A stretch of DNA of 64,000 nucleotides from an uncultured Actinomycetota bacterium (GTDB lineage: Bacteria > Actinomycetota > Actinomycetes > Mycobacteriales > Mycobacteriaceae): positions 55,141 to 119,140 of the forward strand of contig CAVOSY010000037.1 of assembly GCA_963698965.1 (NCBI GenBank), given 5' to 3'. A program made the position numbers and the translations under genes. The notes beneath the pieces are model-generated. The model worked only from the letters and a program-made list of their open reading frames with translations. It did not search any database and was not told the origin of the DNA. Of this stretch, positions 4,865 through 16,475 are shown in pieces (within the stretch, counting starts at the first letter, position 1; every line of letters begins with the position of its first letter).

Positions 4865-6976
4865 TCACCTTCGCGGTCGGGCGCCCGACGCGCGGCGCTG
4901 GGCCCGGTTCATCAGCGCGGGCTCTTCGGATTTGGCGTAGGCGTCGACGATCTCGGAGACCAGCCGGTGCCGGACTACGTCGGCGCTGGTGAGTTCGGCG
5001 AAGTGGATGTCGTCGATGCCGTCGAGGATATGCATGGCCGCGCGCAGGCCGGACGTTGCTCCGCCGGGCAGATCCACCTGCGTGATGTCACCCGTGACAA
5101 CAACTTTCGACCCGAAGCCGAGCCGCGTGAGAAACATCTTCATCTGTTCGCCAGTGGTGTTCTGCGCCTCGTCCAGGATGATGAACGCGTCGTTAAGCGT
5201 GTTGTGGGTGAGCAGGAAGTCCTCGGTCACATATAGCGAGTCCTCGGCAGCGACCTGAATGCATACTGCTTCTTCGGTGCCTGCAGGCTCAATGCGGTGA
5301 ACGAAACGCATTGGCCGACCGCCGCCGGTGGCGTCGTATTTCGCTACCTTGCGGGCGAGTCGGAATGGGGCCACACCCTCCGGCAGACGGATATCGAGGA
5401 TGTGGGCGTCGGCGCGGTGGTGCACGTCTCGACCGCGTGCGAGTCCAGGCTTCCGTCCCTGTGCTGGCCTGGTTCGGGCGTACGCGACGCCGCCGAGTGA
5501 CTGCACCAGGAAGACGACGTGATCCCGCAGGCGATCGGAGACTGTCGTGAACTGAATGCGGCAGGTTCGTTCCTGTTGCGGTACCGGATCACCGTCGGAA
5601 TCGAATAGACCTTGGAGAACGGCAAGGCGCACATCGGGCGTATTGAACAGGTAGTCGTCCGGAACGAACTTGGTGTTCGACTTAGCACCGATTAGCCCCA
5701 GTCGGCGCATGGCGCCTGTGACTGGGTTCTCGATCGTGATGACCTCGCCGGGCGTGGTAATCCGATTCAGCACGTAGTCGATGTCGCTCTTCCGTCGGGG
5801 TTCGATGCCCGGAATGAGTCGTCCAAGGGCTTCAGCGAGCTCAGGATCGGCAGTGGTGAACCCCGGTGTGGCCGTGCATGAGAAGCATCCATCGCCAAGC
5901 AGGAGGCCAAGGGCGTACGGATCGAGCGGAACCGGTCGGGAGTCGAAATCAACCGGTGAACTCAGCAGCGGCAACTCATAGCGGTGCTGATGCGCCGCGC
6001 GGAGATTGCCGAGCATTTCCTTTGTCTGCAACACCCGTGCCGGCCTGCCACGACGCCGATCAGCGTGGGTGTAGACCGACCAGAGGTGGTCGCCGGACGC
6101 AAGCGTCGACGACCCATCCTGTGTATAAACCCGGTAGATCTCTTTGAAGCCCTGGGGATACACACCGAGGACTTCAGTCTCCCGTCCATCCGAGCCGATA
6201 ACGAAATCGCCGACCCGAAGATCACCAATCGGACGGAAACCCGCGGGCGTCAAAACCTTCGTAAACAACGGTTGCGCCCGACCCCGCATGAATGCCAATG
6301 GGGCAACCTCAATCACCCCGGCGCTCATCAGCTTTGGGATCAGCTCCGGATCCATCATGTCGTGCAGCGCGTCGTACAGCGGCCGCAGATACGGGTCGAT
6401 CTTCTCGTAGAGCGTGCCGGGCAGGAAGCCGAGGCGCTCACCGGCCTCCACCGCAGGACGCGTCAGGATGATCCTGCTGACCTGCTTGGTCTGTAATGCG
6501 TTGACCGCCTTGGCCATTGCCAGGTACGTCTTGCCGGTACCAGCGGGCCCGATGCCGAACACGATGGTGTGCGCGTCGATCGCGTCGACATATCGCTTCT
6601 GGTTCAGCGTCTTCGGTCGAATCGTCTTGCCGCGCCGCGACAGAATGTCGAGCGTCAGCACCTCGGCCGGCGACTCGTCGCCCGTGCCGGTCAGCATCGC
6701 GACGCTGTGCCGCACCGCGTCCGGCGTGAGCCGTTGGCCGCTGTCGACGATCGCCATGAGTTCGGAGATCACCCGCTCGGCCAGCGCGACGTCGGCAGGC
6801 TCGCCGGACAGGGTCAGCGCGTTGCCGCGCACGTGGATGTCGGCAGCGAGGATGCGCTCGAGTGCGCGCAAATTCTCGTCGGCGGAACCCAGCAGGCCCA
6901 CGACGAGGTCGGGCGGAACATTGATGCTGCTGCGAACGGGCGAGTCCGAGTCAGCGTTCGTCTCGCGGGGCGTCAC
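4865..6976 (-). CDS. phoH: PhoH family ATPase (PhoH1) interrupted by an in-frame intein; 703 aa precursor, about 344 aa after splicing
   Basis: GPAGTGKT Walker [18 protein letters not shown], and PLAFMRGR|[14 protein letters not shown] split by a 359-aa insert. Confidence 0.95.
5201..6277 (-). mobile_element. Intein (class-3 signature) with LAGLIDADG homing endonuclease, 359 aa
   Basis: Starts [11 protein letters not shown] (Ala1), ends LLTHN before Thr+1; block B ASGDHLW, block F AVCIQV, endonuclease motifs LGLLLGDG and LQGLFDSDG. Confidence 0.93.
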
Positions 6977-7832: not shown

Positions 7833-8975
7833 TCAGCGGCCGGTGAAGGTTTCGCGTAACCGACTGAAGAACCCGCTATTCGTCGAGGCGCTCTGGGTGG
7901 AGCGAACCTCGGCCACATCGCGAGTGCGCTTTTCCTTCAGCTTGGCCAGTAGTTCGATGTCCTCGTGGTCGAGCCGTGACGGCACCACGACCTCGATGTG
8001 GGCGTGCAGGTCACCGCGCACCCCCGAGCGCAGATGCGGCATGCCGTGCCCGCGCAGCGTGGTCACCGAACCGGGCTGAGTGCCGGCGGGGATGACGAGT
8101 TCGGTCGGGCCGTCGATGATCGCGTCGACGGTGACCGTAGTACCCAGCGCGGCGTCGACCATCGGCACGGAGATCGTGCAGTGCAGGTCGTCGCCATCGC
8201 GGACGAACACCTCGTGCTGCTTCTCGTGGACCTCGACGTACAGGTCGCCCGCCGGCCCGCCACCGGGACCGACCTCGCCCTGGGCGGCCAACCGCACCCG
8301 CATTCCGTCGCCGACACCGGCCGGGATCTTCACGCTGATTTCTCGTCGCGCCCGGATGCGGCCGTCACCGCCGCAGCGGTGGCATGGGTCGGGGATGACC
8401 TCGCCCACTCCGCCGCATACCGGGCACGGCCGTGACGTCATCACCTGACCGAGTAGCGACCGCTGGACGGTCTGGATCTCACCGCGCCCGCCACAGGTGT
8501 CGCAGGCGACCGGCGTCGAGTTGCCGTTGGTGCCCTTGCCCTGGCACAGGTCGCACAGCACAGCGGTGTCGACCGTCACCTGCTTCGTCACGCCCGTGGC
8601 GCATTCGGCCAGGTCAAGGCGCATACGCAGCAGTGAGTCCGAGCCCGGCCGGACCCTGCCGATCGGGCCTCGGGAGGTCGTCCCGCCACCGAAGAAGGCC
8701 TCGAACACGTCGCCGAGCCCACCGAAACCGGCGAAGCCGTTGCCTGCGGCGGCCGCGTTCTCCAGCGGATCGCCACCGAGGTCGACAACGCGGCGCTTCT
8801 CCGGGTCGCTCAGCACCTCGTAGGCGACGCTGATCTCCTTGAACCGGGCCTGGGCCTGTTCGTCGGGGTTGACGTCGGGGTGCAGTTCACGGGCGAGCTT
8901 CCGATAGGCGCGCTTGATCTCCGAATCGCTGGCCCCCCTGCTCACCCCGAGCAGCCCGTAGTAGTCGCGTGCCAC
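7833..8975 (-). CDS. dnaJ: Chaperone DnaJ (DnaJ2)
   Basis: J-domain HPD motif, G/F region, four CxxCxGxG-type zinc repeats. Confidence 0.97.
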
Positions 8976-9006: not shown

Positions 9007-10038
9007 TCAGCGGCTGCCTAAGACTTCGCCTATATAAAGAGCAACCGCAGCGACATTAGCGATAGTTCCCGGATAGTCCATTCGCGTGGGTCCCAATACG
9101 CCCATGCCGCCGTACACCTTGCCTGAGCTGCCGTAGGTGGTGGTGACCACCGACGTGCCCGCCATTTGCTCCGCCTCGGTCTCGTGCCCGATGCGCACGG
9201 TGACTCTACCCGCTTCCTGCTGGGCCGCCAGCAGGCGCAGCACCACCACCTGCTCCTCGAGCGCCTCCATCACCGACCGCAGCGAACCGCCGAAGTCGGC
9301 GGTGTTGTGGGCCAGGTTTGCGGTGCCGCCCAGCAGCAGGCGTTCCTCGCTGTGGTCGACCAGTGTCTCCACCAGCACGGTGGCCGCCCTGCCGACCGCA
9401 TCGGCGAGCCCACCGCTGCCGTTGAGGTGCACGGCCAGGTCGGACACCGCAATGGACGCGGCGGCCAGCGGCTTACCCTCCAGCGCCTGGCCGAGGCGGT
9501 CGCGCAGTTGGGTCAGCTCATGCTCGTCGATGGCGTCGCCGAGCTCGACGATGCGCTGGTCGACGCGGCCCGAATCGGTGATCACGACAAGCAACAGGCG
9601 GGCCGGGGTCAGCGCCACCACCTCGAGGTGCCGCACACTCGACGTGGACAGCGTCGGGTACTGGACGATCGCGACCTGGCGGGTGAGCTGGGCCAACAGT
9701 CGTACGGCGCGGCGCAGCACATCATCGAGGTCGACGCCGGACTCCAGAAAGGACAGGATCGCCTTGCGCTCCGAGGATGACAGCGGCTTGATGTCGTCCA
9801 GCCGGTCGACGAACTCGCGGTAGCCCTTCTCGGTGGGCACCCGGCCCGAACTGGTGTGCGGCTGGGCGATGTACCCCTCGGCCTCCAACACCGCCATGTC
9901 ATTGCGCACGGTCGCGCTGGAAACGCCGAGATTGTGCCGCTCGACGAGTGTCTTCGAACCGATCGGCTCCTTGGTGGCCACGAAGTCGGCGACGATGGCA
10001 CGCAGCACCTCAAAACGACGGTCGTCGGCGCTACTCAA
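9007..10038 (-). CDS. hrcA: Heat-inducible transcription repressor HrcA
   Basis: [29 protein letters not shown] motifs; TTG start at 10038 gives 343 aa. Confidence 0.96.
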
Positions 10039-10184
10039 CTGGTCACCTGCCCTTCGCAGCGATTCTGCGTTCATTTTACGGTCATCAACAGGGCCGATAT
10101 CGATCGAGCGGTTGTTTGCGTGGCGGACAGCACGTTTACGACTAGCCTTTGCGATGTGATGCCGACGCCTCAGAGATCACCGCG

Positions 10185-10520
10185 ATGATCTTCAAGGGTG
10201 TGCGCGACGGCAGGCCGTACCCCGAACACGGCCTGTCGCATCGGCAGTGGGCGCAGATTCCGCCCCAGCAGATCCGGCTCGACGAGTTGGTTACCACCAC
10301 GACGGTGTTGGCGCTGGACCGTTTGCTGTCGGAGGACTCGACGTTCTACGGCGACCTCTTCCCGCACGCGGTCAGATGGAAGGGCATCGTCTATCTGGAG
10401 GACGGTTTGCACCGCGCCGTGCAGGCCGCGTTACGGAACAGGACGGTGCTGCACGCGCGCGTGTTCGATATGGACATGCCGTCCCCAGCTGCCGCGTGGG
10501 CCCAGTCGCAGCAGATCTAG
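10185..10520 (+). CDS. Conserved small mycobacterial protein (Rv2375-like) with ParB/Srx-like LEDGLHR motif
   Basis: MIFKGVRDGRPYPEHG...; conserved position divergent from hrcA. Confidence 0.8.
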   Translation: MIFKGVRDGRPYPEHGLSHRQWAQIPPQQIRLDELVTTTTVLALDRLLSEDSTFYGDLFPHAVRWKGIVYLEDGLHRAVQAALRNRTVLHARVFDMDMPSPAAAWAQSQQI

Positions 10521-10636
10521 TTGTCGCTGCGGGCGACGATTGACGACCATGGCAAGCCTTCGCCCGCCGCCAGCGCCGACCCACATCGACGCGCACCTGA
10601 CACACTCCTAACAGGGCGACTGGCACGATCGGGGTT

Positions 10637-10918
10637 GTGCGCGACGACGCGCACGTCCTGACTCGATTGGAGAACCACAGGACCGTATTACGAAGAACGG
10701 CAACGACTTTCGTTGCCACCGCCGCCTTGGCGGCATTGTCTGTCCTGACAATTTCCGGCGTCGCCAACGCGGATCCGGGAATCGGATGGGGCGCACCGGG
10801 TCCCGGGATCCTGCCAGGACCGGCGTCTGAACCTCTGACGGGCGCGGCACGCTCGCGCCCGCTTGCGTCCTCACGTGGCGCAAACACCGTCAGCAGGCAC
10901 GGGGGTGCAGTGCGTTGA
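10637..10918 (+). CDS. Possible short secreted Pro/Gly-rich protein
   Basis: Signal-peptide-like stretch TTFVATAALAALSVLTISGVANA-DP; start uncertain; may be a fragment. Confidence 0.3.
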   Translation: MRDDAHVLTRLENHRTVLRRTATTFVATAALAALSVLTISGVANADPGIGWGAPGPGILPGPASEPLTGAARSRPLASSRGANTVSRHGGAVR

Positions 10919-10967
10919 CCAACAGGAAGAAAGTGCCGTTGTCGTCTTCGAATGGGTTGGTGCTCAT
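10914..10967 (-). pseudogene. mbtH: mbtH 5' remnant (MSTNPFEDDNGTFFLLVN, then diverges and stops after 25 codons)
   Basis: Matches the MbtH N-terminus (MSTNPFDDDNG.FFVLVN); AGGAG RBS upstream. Confidence 0.8.
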
Positions 10968-11172
10968 CACTTCTCCTGATCGGCCGTTCGGCGGCGGTGA
11001 AGTCCACGCCGAGAATCCGGTCGGACAGCAGTCCGAGGCAGCTGAGGTTGGGGAATCCCGGACCCTGCGTCAGCCCGGACAGCCCGGGCAGGAACAGTTT
11101 TTGGCGCGACATCGGTGACGGCGAGGTCATGGTCGATGGCTTCCTGCAAGGTCTCGCCGGTCAACGGACCGC
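10960..11172 (-). pseudogene. mbtG: mbtG (lysine N6-monooxygenase) 3' remnant with +1 frameshift
   Basis: GPLTGETLQEAIDHDLAVTDVAPK / LFLPGLSGLTQGPGFPNLSCLGLLSDRILG read in two frames joined at an A5 run near 11098-11102; no upstream body. Confidence 0.82.
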
Positions 11173-11281
11173 GGTCGGCAAGATCGACAAGGCGATTGTG
11201 AATCAGCTACATCCTGATGGCTAGGGCGGTACCGCACTTCGACACTGGAGTTCTACGCGGAGATGCTTCAAAATATGAAGC

Positions 11282-11608
11282 ATGGCTTCGCCGCGTGTTG
11301 GCTCATCGGTACGGGGATCAGCCTCGGGTCGGCCGATCATGGTCGCCCTCGACGTTCTGGGTCGCCGCGGCGCGCTGCGTGTGCTCTGGGAGTTGCGCGA
11401 CGCTTCGCTGACGTTCCGTGCGCTCCAGGCGGCAGCCGATATGAATCCCGCCTCGCTCAACAAGCGAATCAAGGAGCTCCGTGCGCTGGAGATCATCGAC
11501 CACAGCGGCGACGGCTACCACCTGACGCAGCACGGGCGGTCACTGATGGCCGCCTTCGAACCACTACAAGCCTGGGCGGCGGCATGGGCGCGACAGGTGG
11601 ACCTCTAA
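11282..11608 (+). CDS. HxlR-family winged-helix regulator
   Basis: ALDVLGRRGALRVLWEL...TFRAL...LNKRIKEL...YHLTQHGRSL pattern. Confidence 0.85.
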   Translation: MASPRVGSSVRGSASGRPIMVALDVLGRRGALRVLWELRDASLTFRALQAAADMNPASLNKRIKELRALEIIDHSGDGYHLTQHGRSLMAAFEPLQAWAAAWARQVDL

Positions 11609-11854
11609 ACATCCGGACGACAACGTCGTTTCGCCGGTAAGGCGCCTCGTTCATAGCGCTTTACTTTTTGTAGCACGCCGGTGTATCGTTCCCTTCGACA
11701 GCGCTACAAAAACCATAGCGACTGCCCGCGCGGACCCCGTGTGCGAACGCCTCCGAAGAAGAGGCCGGCGCGGGCACTTCGCGAATCGTTGGTTGTACCG
11801 GTCACCAATCCCGTTGGCCGGACAGGAAATAGGAAATAAGAGAAAGAGTGAAAG

Positions 11855-12082
11855 ATGCCGTTCGTCAACGTGAAGGTCGTTGAAGGAGTGTTCTCCGCAA
11901 CGCAAAAGCAAGACATCGTGCGGAAGGTGACCGATGCCATGGTCGAGATCGAGGGCGAGAACATGCGTCCCGTCACATGGGTAGTGGTCGAGGAGGTCGC
12001 CAGCGGCGACTGGGGCATTGGCGGAACACCGTTGCACGCCGCTGACGTCAAGGCTCTCGCTGCAGGTCAACCGGTCGCCTAG
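11855..12082 (+). CDS. 4-oxalocrotonate tautomerase family protein
   Basis: 75 aa, N-terminal catalytic Pro (MPFVNVK), EEV...DWGIGG; purine-rich RBS. Confidence 0.9.
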   Translation: MPFVNVKVVEGVFSATQKQDIVRKVTDAMVEIEGENMRPVTWVVVEEVASGDWGIGGTPLHAADVKALAAGQPVA

Positions 12083-12094
12083 CGATTGCCGGCC

Positions 12095-12128
12095 CCGGCG
12101 AGACGACCCGACTGCATCGTCTCGCCGG
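12095..12128. terminator. Hairpin between convergent genes (probable bidirectional terminator)
   Basis: Perfect 12-bp stem CCGGCGAGACGA / TCGTCTCGCCGG with 10-nt loop. Confidence 0.6.
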
Positions 12129-12209
12129 AGGCTTCCATCCGGCCGCGTCAGCCAAACACGTTGTAAGCGTGTGTCTTACACGCGAGCAGGCGGGGCGACC
12201 GCGTGCAGA

Positions 12210-12599
12210 TCAACCTGTGACGGACGGCGGCGGCTGCGCTGCTGCGGACTCGGGGTCGATCTCGACGGCGTACGACGTGATCGCCATGATCTGCTCCCCC
12301 GTGTACTCGTAGATGTCGCAGCTGGCGACGGTGGTGACGCCGTTCGGACCGCTATAGCGCGCTAGGGTGTCGACGGCGACGACCCGCTCGTCGACCGCCA
12401 TCACGCACCTTTCGTAGGTCGTCGTGGTGTCTTGTAGGCCTTCCAGGGTCTCCCGGCAGGTCTGGCGCACTGCGTCGGCGCCCTCGAGGACCATGTATCC
12501 CACGACCGTCCAGCGCACATCTTTGGCTAGATGTGGCAGCGCCTCGTCAAACCGATGCTCGGAGAATGCGCGGCCGACGGCGCCGCGATCGAATGCCAT
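12210..12599 (-). CDS. SnoaL/NTF2-like protein
   Basis: LAKDVRWTVVG...LEGADAV, SCDIYEY...IMAITSY NTF2-like pattern. Confidence 0.8.
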   Translation of the reverse strand: MAFDRGAVGRAFSEHRFDEALPHLAKDVRWTVVGYMVLEGADAVRQTCRETLEGLQDTTTTYERCVMAVDERVVAVDTLARYSGPNGVTTVASCDIYEYTGEQIMAITSYAVEIDPESAAAQPPPSVTG

Positions 12600-12646
12600 G
12601 TGCCGACGGTAGCGTGAGGCTGTCGGTCAGTGGAAAGGACGACGGC

Positions 12647-13507
12647 ATGGATCTGTCGGGCGTCGGAATCTGGAGTTCCCAGTTGCGGTACGGGAACGCC
12701 GACGAGGCAACAGACGCCGCCGCGGAGTTGGAAGAGCTCGGCTTCTCCGCGCTGTGGATTCCCGACGTCGGCGGTCCGGTCCTCGACTGCGTCGACAACC
12801 TGCTGGCATCGACGAAACATGTGGTGATTGCCACCGGCATCCTGAACCTCTGGATGCACGACCCATCCGACGTGGCCGCGGGGTACGCCTCCTTGACCAA
12901 GACGCACGGCGAGCGCTTTCTACTCGGCATCGGCTGCAGCCACGCTCCGCTCATCGACTCGAAGGAACCCGGCCGCTACCGCAAGCCCCTGGCCGCGACC
13001 CGCGCATTCCTCGACGCCCTGGACGCCGCCGAGCGGCCGGTGCCCGTCGTGAACCGGGTGCTCGCGGCGCTCGGCCCCAAAATGCTTGAGCTGTCGGCGA
13101 ACCGCTCCCGCGGTGCTCACCCGTACTTGGTGATGCCCGACCACACGCACCAGGCCAGGGAGGTGCTGGGCTCTGGCCCCCTCTTGCTTCCCGAGCAGAC
13201 GGTGTTCCTCACCAACAGCCGCGACGACGCGCGAGCCATCGGAACCGATTGGCTGCGCGCCTATCTGGCCCTGCCGAACTACGCCAACAACCTGCTACGC
13301 TCCGGCTTCACGCAGGACGACCTTGACTCGGTCAGCGATCGCCTCTTCGACGCGATCATCGCATGGGGCGACGAGGACGCCATCACGCAGCGGGTCAACG
13401 AACACAAACAGGCTGGGGCGGACCACGTTTGCGTTCAGGCGTTGACTGCCGACCCGCGGGAGTTCCCGCGCGAACAATGGCGGACCCTCGCCGCGGCATT
13501 CGCCTAG
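12647..13507 (+). CDS. LLM-class (probably F420-dependent) oxidoreductase
   Basis: ATG after GGAAAGGA; ELEELGFSALW, ATGILNLW, AALGPKMLEL, GADHVCVQ. Confidence 0.88.
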   Translation: MDLSGVGIWSSQLRYGNADEATDAAAELEELGFSALWIPDVGGPVLDCVDNLLASTKHVVIATGILNLWMHDPSDVAAGYASLTKTHGERFLLGIGCSHAPLIDSKEPGRYRKPLAATRAFLDALDAAERPVPVVNRVLAALGPKMLELSANRSRGAHPYLVMPDHTHQAREVLGSGPLLLPEQTVFLTNSRDDARAIGTDWLRAYLALPNYANNLLRSGFTQDDLDSVSDRLFDAIIAWGDEDAITQRVNEHKQAGADHVCVQALTADPREFPREQWRTLAAAFA

Positions 13508-13568
13508 CCGAGTGTGGGCTTGTGTCACGTCTTGAGCGAGCTGGGCGTGCAGTAAGTCCACGCTCGGC
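13507..13568. repeat. Long palindromic intergenic element (REP-like)
   Basis: GCCGAGTGTGGGCTT ... AAGTCCACGCTCGGC 15-bp arms (two G.U pairs) immediately after the stop codon. Confidence 0.5.
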
Positions 13569-13668
13569 ATCGGCCGCGCGACACGAGATACGCGCGAGCA
13601 TCGCAAGTCTCCTCGAACTCGCGGTCCGGCGTCGACGCGGCGACGATGCGGAGGGCGGGAATTGGGGG

Positions 13669-14376
13669 CTACCGCAGCGTCTTGACCGCCAGCGGCTCGT
13701 TGCTCCCGCTCTCCCGAATGTCGACGGTGCTGATCTGCGAGGCCGGGATGCTCGTCGCCGCCGACAGTCCGGTCGCCTCATCTCCGGCGGGCTTCCATGA
13801 GCCAACGACCTTCTGCTGGCCGTCGTGCGTCGTCACCACGATGTCGTAGCTGTCGACGTTGCGCGACCAGTCCTTGGTGTACTGGCAGGCCCAGTTCAGC
13901 TCCGTGCCCCACTTCTTCTCGGTGACGGCGAGCTGGGCGGTCAGCCCACCACGCGGGGTCGGCTGCATCGCCTGCATCGCCACCGTCTGCGTCGGTGGAG
14001 CGGACTGCGGGAAGACGGTTGCTCCTACGACGCCACCGGCGATCACGAGCGCGGCTGCCGATGCAACGGCCGCCGCGAGCCACGTGCGCCGCGAGCGCTG
14101 CTGCCGCTTGGCCGCCGCATGCGCGAGCGATGCAATGTTGTCCGGCCGGTCCGCGATCGGCGGAGCGCCTGCGAGATTGGTGAGTGCGACGGCTTCGTCA
14201 CGGCTCAGCGCGTTGAGAATGCCGGGCATCCCCGCCAGGTCGGTCAGCTCGGCGGCCCGCGCCGGGTTGGTGGCCAGATAGTCCTCGTAGGTACGCCGAT
14301 CATCCAGGCTCAGCGCACCCAGAACGTAGGCAGCATCCCACTCGGCAAGGTCGTCATCGGGCTTGAAGTTCGTCAC
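13669..14376 (-). CDS. Membrane anti-sigma factor, RslA-like, zinc motif degenerate
   Basis: WDAAYVLGALS N-terminus, central TM helix, C-terminal extracellular domain; overlaps the sigma stop. Confidence 0.88.
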   Translation of the reverse strand: MTNFKPDDDLAEWDAAYVLGALSLDDRRTYEDYLATNPARAAELTDLAGMPGILNALSRDEAVALTNLAGAPPIADRPDNIASLAHAAAKRQQRSRRTWLAAAVASAAALVIAGGVVGATVFPQSAPPTQTVAMQAMQPTPRGGLTAQLAVTEKKWGTELNWACQYTKDWSRNVDSYDIVVTTHDGQQKVVGSWKPAGDEATGLSAATSIPASQISTVDIRESGSNEPLAVKTLR

Positions 14377-14888
14377 CGGACAACCCCTCTTTCCTGCAAC
14401 GCGATTCGCAACGCGCGAAGCGCGTAATGAAGCCTTGACTTGACGGTTCCCTCAGGGATTCCCTCTTGCTGCGCAATATCGGCCACTGTTTGGCCGAGAT
14501 AATAGGCGCGGACGATCACCGTCCGGTGGTCCTCGCTGAGCGACAGCAGTGCGTCCGACAGTATCCATTTGTCGAACGCCGGGCCGATCGCATCGGGCGA
14601 CGGCCGTTCTGGCAGGTATTCACTCTGGAGTTCGCGGGTGTATCGCGCGCTGCGCCGGTCGTCGATCACCAGATTGCGAGCGACGGTGAACAGCCACTTG
14701 CGGACGTTGTCCATCGGCTGCTCGAGCACCTCGGGCTTGCGCCAGAGCTTCAGCAGCGACTCCTGCACCACGTCTTCCGCGAACGGCATGTCGCCCCTTG
14801 TCAGTCTCAATACATAGCGCAGCAGCGGCTGGCTGTGCTCGTCGTGCACGGCCCGCAGCAGCTCCGCCTGCTCGGAATCGTCTGTCAT
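14373..14888 (-). CDS. ECF sigma factor, SigL-like
   Basis: AEDVVQESLL, WLFTVARNLVID region 2; GIPEGTVKSRLHYALRAL region 4. Confidence 0.92.
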   Translation of the reverse strand: MTDDSEQAELLRAVHDEHSQPLLRYVLRLTRGDMPFAEDVVQESLLKLWRKPEVLEQPMDNVRKWLFTVARNLVIDDRRSARYTRELQSEYLPERPSPDAIGPAFDKWILSDALLSLSEDHRTVIVRAYYLGQTVADIAQQEGIPEGTVKSRLHYALRALRIALQERGVVR

Positions 14889-15272: not shown

Positions 15273-16475
15273 TCAGTCGAGCAGCGTGCGAACCGCCGCA
15301 TCGGCCAGCAACCGGCCGCGGTCGGTGAGCACCAGTCGGTCGCCGTGCAATTCGATGAGGCCGTCGGAGATCACAGTCTCGGCGCGGGCTCGTTCGCCTG
15401 CGCTGAGCACGGCCATCGGGAGGCCGTCGCGCAACCGCAGTCTCAGCATCACGTCCTCGATGTGCCGGGTGTCAGCGTCCAGCTGCTCGAAGTCGGCGAC
15501 CGGGAGCACCCCTTCGCCAAGTGACTGCGCATAAGCGTTGGGGTGCTTGACATTCCACCAACGGGTGGCGCCGACGTACCCGTGTGCACCGGGTCCGGCG
15601 CCCCACCATTCGCCGCCGTTCCAGTAGCCGATGTTGTGTCTGCACTCGCCGCCGGGCCTGCTCCAGTTGGAGACCTCGTACCAGTCGAAACCTGCCGCTG
15701 ACAACCGCGCGTCGAGCAATTCGTAGCGCTGTGCGAGCACGTCGTTGTCGGGTGCCGCGATCTCGCCGCGACGCACCCGGCGCGCCAGCGCCGTGCCGTC
15801 CTCGACCACCAGCGCGTAGCCGGACACATGGTCGACGCCTGCGTCGATCGCCGCGTCGACGGAGCGGCGCAGATCGTCGTCGGACTCCCCCGGCGTGCCA
15901 TAAATGAGGTCGAGGTTGACGTGGTCGAACCCGGCGCCGCGGGCTTCGCGCGCCGCGTCGAGCGCCCGGCCCGGCGAGTGCACCCGGTCGAGCACCGCCA
16001 ACACGTGCGGGGCCACGGACTGCATGCCGAGCGACACCCGGGTGAACCCCGCAGCCCGCAGTCGTTCGAAGAAGCGCGGCGATGTGGACTCGGGGTTCGC
16101 CTCGGTCGTCACCTCGGCGTCCGCGGCCAGCGTGAAATGTGCGCGGAGCGCATCGAGCACCGTCGCAAGACCGTCGCCACCCAGCAGCGAGGGCGTCCCG
16201 CCACCGACGAACACCGTGTCGACCTGCCGCCGGACGTGAGGAGGACTTAATCGATGTGGTGAGGCCAGCCGCGACGCTGCAAGGCCGAGCTCGGCGCGCA
16301 GAGCCTCCAGCCAGCCGTATGGGTTCGCGCCGCCCAGCTCGGCGGGCGTGTAGGTGTTGAAGTCGCAGTAGCCGCATCGCGTCGCGCAGAACGGCACATG
16401 GATATAGATGCCGAACGGCCGGCCCGGCACAGCAACCAGGTGTGGGAGCTCCATGAGAGCCGTTCGGACCGTCAT
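15273..16475 (-). CDS. hemW: Radical SAM heme chaperone HemW (HemN-like)
   Basis: YIHVPFCATRCGYCDF CxxxCxxC, GGGTPS, HNIGYW; start placed at MTVRT. Confidence 0.93.
   Translation of the reverse strand: MTVRTALMELPHLVAVPGRPFGIYIHVPFCATRCGYCDFNTYTPAELGGANPYGWLEALRAELGLAASRLASPHRLSPPHVRRQVDTVFVGGGTPSLLGGDGLATVLDALRAHFTLAADAEVTTEANPESTSPRFFERLRAAGFTRVSLGMQSVAPHVLAVLDRVHSPGRALDAAREARGAGFDHVNLDLIYGTPGESDDDLRRSVDAAIDAGVDHVSGYALVVEDGTALARRVRRGEIAAPDNDVLAQRYELLDARLSAAGFDWYEVSNWSRPGGECRHNIGYWNGGEWWGAGPGAHGYVGATRWWNVKHPNAYAQSLGEGVLPVADFEQLDADTRHIEDVMLRLRLRDGLPMAVLSAGERARAETVISDGLIELHGDRLVLTDRGRLLADAAVRTLLD

What the first reader, a model, noticed from the sequence alone, without database searches (positions are those of the whole stretch)
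10914..11172. Fossil of the mycobactin cluster: frameshifted mbtG tail fused to an mbtH stub
Seen: on the minus strand the MbtG C-terminus is split by one extra A (CCA AAA A CTG), then AGGAG and MSTNPFEDDNGTFFLLVN, which dies after 25 codons. Established: in M. tuberculosis and M. smegmatis the mbt NRPS/PKS cluster lies between hrcA and hemN/hemW. Inference: this lineage deleted or relocated the whole siderophore cluster from this site and filled the gap with unrelated small genes (11.3-15.2 kb). It may be mycobactin-deficient or use other iron sources.
Basis: partly seen in the sequence, partly recalled or inferred. Interest (0 to 1): 0.68.

Follow-up and report, generated by a model that had tools for sequence, protein, structure and literature searches.

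The report
Relics of a deleted mycobactin cluster
A soil mycobacterium has deleted its mycobactin (iron-scavenging siderophore) gene cluster at the usual site next to hrcA, leaving four short dead gene fragments; this is ordinary gene loss, also seen with different breakpoints in close relatives.

Summary
Window 10914-11172 (minus strand) is 86.5% identical in DNA to the mbtG/mbtH junction of Mycobacterium sp. OAS707, which keeps an intact mbtE-F-G-H next to hrcA. It covers MbtG residues ~356-429, split by an A4->A5 run, and MbtH residues 1-18.

I found two more relics:
- The last ~17 codons of mbtA, on the plus strand at 11168-11224, directly abutting the mbtG piece.
- 16 codons of mbtI at 13600-13647.

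The mbtG'|mbtA' junction is what one deletion from inside mbtG, through mbtF-E-D-C-B, into mbtA would leave.

In an mbt-positive relative (NPDC048908), hxlR, tautomerase, SnoaL, LLM oxidoreductase, anti-sigma and sigma lie in the same order between mbtA, mbtI and hemW, so they are ancestral neighbours.

The scar occurs in seven independent assemblies and about 20 soil metagenomes. The frameshift is polymorphic, so it is younger than the deletion.

Close relatives keep different relics (mbtA 450-496 in one, mbtI 339-355 in another), so losses were independent. Of 64 assessable related species, 30 lack mbtG here.

Whether the organism makes no mycobactin is likely but not proven; the whole genome could not be searched. 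This is a new example of a known kind, of modest interest.

The parts
10890..10967 (-). mbtH' stub: 25-codon ORF. Codons 1-18 (10914-10967) are homologous to MbtH; the last 7 codons are unrelated sequence beyond the 3' breakpoint at about 10913/10914. AGGAG ribosome-binding site at 10973-10977.
   Evidence: 2khr MbtH E 1.4e-5. Pfam MbtH positions 2-18/53, 20 bits. L009 MbtH 1-18, 83%. No further MbtH homology downstream.
10948..11172 (-). mbtG' 3' remnant (about residues 356-429 of 429). It lies in two reading frames and its stop codon is lost (CGATGA -> CGAAGA).
   Evidence: 4d7e NbtG 353-415, E 4e-18. L009 MbtG 379-429, 90%. blastn block 11172..10914, 86.5%. Alignment. Codon-position GC is still gene-like, 0.67/0.49/0.76.
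11098..11102 (-). A5 homopolymer causing the +1 frameshift in mbtG'. It is polymorphic in the population: A4 (in frame) in run X9.
   Evidence: Alignments: intact relatives have no extra base, and L016 reads CCAAAACTG. A5 in contigs L001-L006 and in runs X1, X2, X8. One letter is left out at 11098 in X9.
11168..11224 (+). mbtA' 3' remnant: the last ~17 codons plus stop (TAVGKID-KAIVNQLHPDG*). It abuts mbtG' back to back. The bases ACCGC (11168-11172) fit both sides of the deletion junction.
   Evidence: 53-nt local alignment to the 3' end of mbtA in L087 (5010-5066). tblastn TAVGKVDKKAIVKQI vs TAVGKID-KAIVNQL, E 0.04 against the whole window. blastn-short E 1.7e-4 to the mbtA fragment of L069. 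Weak alone; supported by position and strand, upstream of hxlR as in L087.
13600..13647 (-). mbtI' remnant: 16 codons (IVAASTPDREFEETCD), matching residues 419-434 of the 448-aa salicylate synthase. It lies in the 160-bp gap between the LLM oxidoreductase and the anti-sigma gene.
   Evidence: blastn 13601-13649 vs L087 12065-12113, 87.8%, E 1.5e-11. tblastn 14/16 identical, E 2.8e-4 against the whole window. Same position and strand as mbtI in L087.
10372..11130 (-). Spurious 252-aa ORF created by loss of the mbtG stop. Gene callers annotate it on metagenome contigs. Not a gene.
   Evidence: Called as a 252-aa product with no Pfam hit on L001, L002 and L005. Flat codon-position GC 0.66/0.66/0.62. 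Single-base indel polymorphisms inside it at 10721 and 10780.
10149..10520 (+). VapB-like (Rv2375-type) gene. Conserved left neighbour of the cluster, next to hrcA (9007-10074, minus strand).
   Evidence: Pfam PF23719, E 5.6e-48. Present beside hrcA in nearly all 80 related loci.
11282..11608 (+). hxlR-family regulator. First intact gene to the right of the scar; an ancestral neighbour of the mbtA end.
   Evidence: Pfam HxlR. 81% ortholog P0005 in the same position in L087.
11855..13507 (.). Tautomerase (11855-12082 +), SnoaL-like (12210-12599 -) and LLM/F420-type oxidoreductase (12647-13507 +). All are intact ancestral neighbours.
   Evidence: Pfam hits. Same order and strands, 79-84% nt identity, in L087. 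Gene-like GC3 of 0.75-0.86.
13669..14888 (-). Anti-sigma (13669-14376) and ECF sigma (14373-14888), followed by hemW (15273-16475). This is the conserved right flank.
   Evidence: Pfam. Synteny in L087, L007, L008, L034 and JS623.

Best explanation
These are non-functional relics of the mbt-1 (mycobactin/carboxymycobactin NRPS-PKS) cluster, which this soil mycobacterium deleted in place in several steps.

Step 1 (shown). One deletion ran from about mbtG codon 356, through mbtF, mbtE, mbtD, mbtC, mbtB and the divergent mbtB/mbtA promoter region, to about mbtA codon 514. This left the 3' ends of mbtG (minus strand) and mbtA (plus strand) back to back at 11168-11172. The five bases ACCGC fit both sides. 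Illegitimate recombination at this microhomology is an inference.

Step 2 (shown). Separate lesions removed mbtH beyond codon 18 and all of mbtI except 16 codons.

Step 3 (shown). Later decay followed: the mbtG stop codon was lost, and an A4->A5 slip arose that is still polymorphic in the population.

The genes at 11.3-15.2 kb are the cluster's old neighbours, not replacements.

Inferred: the lineage no longer makes mycobactin. It must obtain iron with another siderophore or by taking up siderophores made by other organisms.
For: - Homology of the four relics.
- Near-end synteny with an intact mbtE-F-G-H in L009 (OAS707).
- Far-end synteny in L087 (NPDC048908): mbtB-, mbtA+, GH16, MFS, helicase, hxlR+, tautomerase+, SnoaL-, LLM+, mbtI-, anti-sigma-, sigma-, hemW-.
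- No other mbt remnant in the 64-kb window.
- The same scar occurs in six ENA metagenome contigs and an NCBI MAG at 99.2% identity. 20 soil or rhizosphere runs hold 81-98% of its 31-mers. Four short-read assemblies cover it contiguously with the same junctions.
- The frameshift is absent in run X9. All four indel polymorphisms in 3.3 kb fall in non-coding or relic DNA.
- An IdeR-box-like site lies upstream of mbtI in L087, and there is none in the window.
- On L009 mbtF-G-H at >=80% likeness, four metagenomes that hold the organism at depth 7-19 give contiguous cover only on the relic (8518-8700) and on the vapB-like gene.
Against: - The whole genome of the organism could not be searched, so a second or relocated mbt cluster, or one below 80% identity, is not excluded.
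- The mbtA' and mbtI' relics are short (17 and 16 codons). They are significant mainly through their position.
- Polarised substitution counts in mbtG'/mbtH' show no clear relaxation of constraint (9 synonymous: 6 non-synonymous in the window branch against 9:5 in L009, after dropping the 19 junction bases). The deletion is therefore either recent, or the sample is too small to tell.
- L087 has GH16, MFS and helicase genes between mbtA and hxlR. It is not known whether the window lineage lost them too or never had them.
Confidence: 0.88

Rival explanations
1. The cluster was moved, not lost. An intact mbt cluster, or a functional paralogue, sits elsewhere in the genome, and the relics only mark the old address.
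For: Nothing direct. Some relatives have mbtG without an adjacent mbtH (L018, L021, L025, L026, L033, L047, L076), and M. deserti has an LLM gene inserted between NRPS genes. The region is therefore rearrangement-prone.
Against: - At least three separate lesions hit different essential genes (mbtG-to-mbtA, mbtH, mbtI). That is the pattern of decay after loss of function, not of a single excision and transposition.
- No contiguous contig matches L009 mbtF or mbtG at >=80% at the organism's depth in four metagenomes, while the relic and the vapB-like gene are covered.
- No mbt gene lies elsewhere in the 64-kb window.
Confidence: 0.1
2. The remnant has been co-opted. On this reading, the 25-codon MbtH stub or the 252-aa ORF 10372-11130 is a real expressed product.
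For: The stub keeps its AGGAG and ATG and is unchanged in every assembly seen. Gene callers annotate the 252-aa ORF.
Against: - The stub ends before the conserved core of MbtH-like proteins: it matches only profile positions 2-18 of 53.
- The 252-aa ORF has flat codon-position GC (0.66/0.66/0.62, against about 0.7/0.45/0.85 for real genes).
- It has no Pfam match, and strains differ by 1-nt indels inside it.
- The closest relatives L007 and L008 lack the segment altogether.
Confidence: 0.02
3. Assembly or sequencing artefact: a chimeric join, or a homopolymer error producing the frameshift.
For: Several related contigs (L003, L006) carry many frameshifts typical of long-read error. The frameshift lies in a homopolymer.
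Against: The junctions are identical in seven independent assemblies and in four Logan assemblies of other runs, with even depth across them and no alternative joints. A5 is seen in three of those four runs and A4 in one, which looks like a real polymorphism.
Confidence: 0.01

Closest known systems
M. avium subsp. paratuberculosis mbt cluster decay (mycobactin-dependent growth)
   Same: A mycobacterium whose mycobactin pathway carries mutations, including deletions, in mbt genes at the native locus, with impaired mycobactin synthesis (PMC4810606, abstract).
   Different: MAP keeps most of the cluster, and its phenotype has been measured. Here almost the whole cluster is gone and only about 350 bp remain. 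The organism is an uncultured free-living soil bacterium, not a host-adapted pathogen, and no phenotype is known.
M. tuberculosis / M. smegmatis mbt-1 locus (mbtA-J between hrcA and hemN)
   Same: Same address, order and orientation: hrcA, Rv2375-like gene, mbtH<-mbtG<-...<-mbtB, then divergent mbtA->, with mbtI and hemN/hemW beyond. The Mtb gene order is from my own knowledge. It is confirmed here for relatives by L009 and L087.
   Different: In this clade the far end also holds hxlR, tautomerase, SnoaL, LLM and a sigma/anti-sigma pair, interleaved with mbtI.
Mycobacterium sp. JS623 and other mbt-less relatives at this locus
   Same: hrcA and hemW lie a few kb apart with sigma/anti-sigma/SnoaL between them and no mbt genes. 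30 of 64 assessable related species are like this.
   Different: Most have clean deletions. The window lineage keeps four relics. L007 keeps mbtA 450-496 instead, and L092 keeps mbtI 339-355. The breakpoints therefore differ.

Membership tests
MbtH-like protein (Pfam PF03621) | Match to the family profile at or above Pfam's gathering score | tested here: not met
   20.0 bits against a cut-off of 27, E 4.5e-4. Only residues 3-19 match, to profile positions 2-18 of 53.
MbtH-like protein (Pfam PF03621) | Complete ~60-75 aa domain including the conserved Trp-containing core that contacts adenylation domains (own knowledge) | tested here: not met
   Homology stops after codon 18. The remaining 7 codons are unrelated, and no later MbtH residues are found downstream in any frame.
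MbtG / NbtG L-lysine N6-hydroxylase (flavin monooxygenase) | N-terminal FAD and NADPH binding domains | tested here: not met
   Only residues ~356-429 of 429 are present. No Pfam domain is detected on the fragment.
MbtG / NbtG L-lysine N6-hydroxylase (flavin monooxygenase) | Significant sequence similarity to characterised members | tested here: met
   4d7e, E 4e-18 over 63 aa. 90% identity over 51 aa to L009 MbtG.
MbtA salicyl-AMP ligase (AMP-binding superfamily) | Adenylation domain (Pfam AMP-binding plus AMP-binding_C) | tested here: not met
   Only the last ~17 codons remain (TAVGKIDKAIVNQL...). tblastn of full MbtA against the window gives nothing at E <= 1e-3.
MbtI salicylate synthase (Pfam Chorismate_bind) | Chorismate-binding domain of ~450 aa | tested here: not met
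   16 codons remain, residues 419-434 of 448.
Unitary pseudogene / deletion relic | Homolog of an intact gene at the syntenic position and strand in relatives | tested here: met
   mbtG'/mbtH' against L009; mbtA'/mbtI' against L087.
Unitary pseudogene / deletion relic | Disabling lesions (truncation, frameshift, lost stop) | tested here: met
   All four genes are truncated. +1 A frameshift. mbtG stop lost.
Unitary pseudogene / deletion relic | Relaxed selective constraint | tested here: inconclusive
   The substitution pattern is not distinguishable from the L009 branch. However, indel polymorphisms in strains fall only in this non-coding stretch and in intergenic DNA.

The most novel reading that the evidence does not exclude
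A widespread, so far uncultured clade of soil mycobacteria has repeatedly and independently discarded mycobactin synthesis, with different breakpoints in the window lineage, L007, L092 and JS623. These bacteria would live as siderophore 'cheaters' that depend on mycobactins or other siderophores made by neighbours. If so, supplementing media with mycobactin might help to culture them.
Probability: 0.2. Interest if true: 0.55.

Novelty: new member of a known kind. Interest (0 to 1): 0.3.

Why it matters
- It gives direct sequence proof that absence of the mbt cluster at the hrcA-hemW site in this lineage is a loss rather than a never-gained state.
- It maps the main deletion to within five bases and shows that close relatives lost the cluster by different deletions.
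- It warns annotators that the 252-aa 'hypothetical protein' called across the scar is an artefact.
- If the pathway is truly gone, these abundant soil mycobacteria rely on other iron sources. That bears on siderophore sharing in soil and on how to culture them.
- It does not reveal a new kind of system.

Tried and rejected
1. I first extended the MbtG homology to 11191 (LVDLADR...). I rejected this. blastn stops at 11172, and 11168-11224 is better explained on the other strand as the mbtA tail. The excess of odd substitutions in those 19 bases was the clue.

2. The plus-strand ORF 10637-10918 ('sec93') has a signal peptide and looked like a small secreted protein. It has flat codon GC, and strains carry 1-nt indels in it. 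Only its first ~50 residues resemble a Gly/Pro-rich secreted protein of L053 and L007. It is probably another decayed remnant, not a gene.

3. I tried to see the far end of the cluster in OAS707 through its HxlR hit P0083. This turned out to be a paralogue near dnaE1 and was uninformative.

4. A search for an IdeR box in the window (TWAGGTWAGSCTWACCTWA, up to 3 mismatches) found none. L087 served as a positive control, with one site upstream of mbtI.

5. A dN/dS-style polarity test was inconclusive; too few sites.

6. Rfam and tRNA scans of the window found nothing.

7. No isolate genome run exists for this species; all holders are soil, rhizosphere or root metagenomes. A whole-genome search for mbt genes was therefore impossible.

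8. Literature searches found no survey of mbt loss in environmental rapid growers. They found only the MAP case and a gene-count study of clinical NTM.

9. The first tree run timed out and was repeated with faster settings.

Full report
**Observation.**
- An AGGAG and an ATG at 10967 open a 25-codon ORF, MSTNPFEDDNGTFFLLVNALHPRAC. Its first 19 residues match M. tuberculosis MbtH (PDB 2khr, E 1.4e-5) and Pfam MbtH positions 2-18 of 53.
- Upstream, two reading frames together give a peptide that matches the L-lysine N6-monooxygenase NbtG (4d7e) at residues 353-415 of 429, E 4e-18.
- The two frames are separated by an A5 run at 11098-11102. Intact relatives have one base fewer there.
- blastn against locus L009 (Mycobacterium sp. 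OAS707) gives a single block, window 11172..10914, 86.5% identical over 259 nt.
- The word 'fused' is not apt. In intact relatives the mbtH start codon already lies about 20 nt inside the end of mbtG (mbtG ends at 8669, mbtH starts at 8647).
- The mbtG stop is also lost here (CGATGA -> CGAAGA). This opens a 252-aa ORF (10372-11130) that gene callers annotate on several metagenome contigs.

**More relics.** A relative with an intact far end of the cluster was found through the HxlR protein: L087, Mycobacterium sp. NPDC048908. Comparison with it exposed two further fragments.
- Window 13600-13647 (minus strand) encodes IVAASTPDREFEETCD. This is 14/16 identical to residues 419-434 of the 448-aa salicylate synthase MbtI of L087 and 87.8% identical in DNA. 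It lies in the same position and on the same strand, between the LLM oxidoreductase and the anti-sigma gene.
- Window 11168-11224 (plus strand) encodes TAVGKID-KAIVNQLHPDG*. This aligns with the last 16 codons of mbtA in L087 (TAVGKVDKKAIVKQIQR*) and with an mbtA fragment in L069.
- The mbtA match is weak on its own (E 0.04 and 1.7e-4). But it sits on the expected strand, directly upstream of hxlR and directly against the mbtG piece.
- No other part of MbtA, B, E, F, G, H or I, and none of the GH16, MFS or helicase genes of L087, is found anywhere in the 64-kb window.

**What the junction means.** In relatives the order is hrcA, a VapB-like (Rv2375-type) gene, mbtH<-mbtG<-mbtF<-mbtE... (L009), and at the other end ...mbtB<- ->mbtA (L087).
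- A single deletion from inside mbtG, across mbtF-E-D-C-B and the divergent mbtB/mbtA promoter region, into mbtA would leave the 3' ends of mbtG (minus) and mbtA (plus) back to back. That is the arrangement at 11168-11172.
- The five bases ACCGC can be assigned to either side. This suggests, but does not prove, a join at a microhomology.
- By analogy with M. tuberculosis gene sizes (own knowledge), this deletion removed roughly 21-24 kb.
- The losses of mbtH beyond codon 18 and of mbtI are separate lesions.

**The 'filler' genes are ancestral.** L087 reads: mbtB-, mbtA+, GH16-, MFS+, DEAD/DUF3516 helicase-, hxlR+, tautomerase+, SnoaL-, LLM+, mbtI-, small ORF, anti-sigma-, ECF sigma-, hemW-, an IS, sirA+.
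- The window's genes from 11282 to 14888 are the same genes in the same order and orientation, 79-84% identical in DNA. They are of matching length with normal codon-position GC.
- They were therefore there before the deletion.
- It is unknown whether GH16, MFS and the helicase were also lost from the window lineage. JS623 keeps an 88% identical helicase next to its VapB-like gene.

**The scar is real and variable in the population.** It occurs, with the same junctions, in six ENA metagenome contigs from different samples and in an NCBI MAG (GCA_035491595.1, 99.2% identical over 5.2 kb).
- Twenty soil, rhizosphere or root metagenomes from about ten studies hold 81-98% of its 31-mers. No isolate run was found.
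- Laying four of these runs on 10500-13800 gives even depth, no alternative joints and few differences.
- Run X9 lacks one base of the A run (A4, with a synonymous change beside it), so its mbtG tail is in frame. The frameshift is therefore younger than the deletion.
- The other indel polymorphisms are at 10721, 10780 and 11734. All are in relic or intergenic DNA and none is in an intact gene.

**Distribution.** I examined 80 species-level relatives retrieved with HrcA.
- 34 have a full-length mbtG upstream of hrcA.
- 30 have hemW or sirA within 10 kb of hrcA and no mbtG.
- 16 cannot be judged.
- A rough neighbour-joining tree of hrcA-dnaJ2 places the window lineage beside L008 (no mbt), then L009 (mbt+), L034 (no mbt), and L015/L016 (mbt+). 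It lies inside a largely mbt-positive group.
- The closest relatives carry different scars. L007 keeps MbtA residues 450-496 (E 2e-12) between SnoaL and the VapB-like gene but has no mbtG', mbtH', hxlR or tautomerase. L092 keeps MbtI residues 339-355 beside the anti-sigma gene. L008, L034 and JS623 have clean joins.
- The window's main deletion removed the mbtA codons that L007 still has, and L007 lacks the pieces the window still has. The two lineages therefore lost the cluster by independent deletions.

**Lost or moved?** The whole genome could not be searched. Three lines of evidence favour loss.
1. At least three separate lesions hit different essential genes.
2. L087 has an IdeR-box-like site just upstream of mbtI, and the window has none at up to three mismatches.
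3. L009 mbtF-mbtG-mbtH-vapB-like was laid against four metagenomes that hold this organism at k-mer depth 7-19, at >=80% likeness. Contiguous cover at that depth was seen only on the relic (8518-8700) and on the VapB-like gene. The rest showed low depth and sharp spikes on NRPS core motifs from unrelated genes.

A cluster below 80% identity, or a different siderophore system, would not be seen this way.

**How it 'works'.** It does not. It is decaying DNA. The stub lacks the MbtH core, and the MbtG piece lacks both nucleotide-binding domains. The 252-aa ORF has flat codon-position GC and tolerates indels. The consequence is for the organism: probably no mycobactin synthesis, and therefore reliance on another siderophore or on siderophores made by others. 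That step is inference.

**Comparison with what is known.** The closest described case is M. avium subsp. paratuberculosis. Its mbt genes carry mutations, including deletions, and it is impaired in mycobactin synthesis (PMC4810606). The present case is a more complete erasure, in a free-living soil species. Absence of the cluster at this address is common among related rapid growers, so the loss itself is not surprising. What is new is the set of relics, which proves loss, dates the events relative to each other and shows parallel deletions in sister lineages. I rate it a new member of a known kind, of modest interest.

Noticed in passing
window 4865-6976 (minus strand): PhoH-like ATPase of 703 aa, interrupted by an intein of about 355 aa with a LAGLIDADG homing-endonuclease domain. 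The insert starts AQPLFTKV... after ...FMRGR and ends ...LLTHN before [14 protein letters not shown]. It is patchy among relatives: present in 11 of about 68 related loci and also in JS623, absent from 57.
   Followed up: partly
window 10637-10918 (plus strand): An ORF with a good signal peptide followed by ADPGIGWGAPGPGILPGP. It resembles the start of a small Gly/Pro-rich repetitive secreted protein found next to the VapB-like gene in L053 (M. stellerae) and L007. Here it has no coding GC signature, ends inside the mbtH relic, and carries 1-nt indel polymorphisms. It is probably another decayed gene.
   Followed up: partly
L004:10872-13457 (window equivalent 13505-13513): In one population variant a 2.6-kb pair of IS elements (IS110-type and DDE_Tnp_1-type transposases) is inserted at the end of the LLM gene, beside the mbtI relic. 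Nine bases (13505-13513) are matched on both sides, which is a possible target-site duplication.
   Followed up: partly
L037:1145-8455 (M. deserti): An ortholog of the window's LLM oxidoreductase (81%) sits between two NRPS genes of an otherwise intact mbt cluster. MbtG there carries six tandem copies of an 11-residue repeat (STERGLAERPS) near its C-terminus.
   Followed up: no
L018, L021, L025, L026, L033, L047, L076 (upstream of hrcA): These species have a full-length mbtG beside the VapB-like gene but no detectable mbtH after it. The adjacent mbtH is therefore dispensable or encoded elsewhere in some lineages.
   Followed up: no
L091, L092, L093, between SnoaL and the VapB-like gene: In mbt-less relatives the former cluster site holds different cargo: a DEAD/DUF3516 helicase in JS623; a P450 and a methyltransferase in L092; an alpha/beta hydrolase-GerE protein and a methyltransferase in L093. 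The site behaves as a variable region after the loss.
   Followed up: no
L023:1-4306: mbtF and mbtG match in many short pieces in different frames. This is either a cluster in the course of decay or long-read assembly error; it was not resolved.
   Followed up: no
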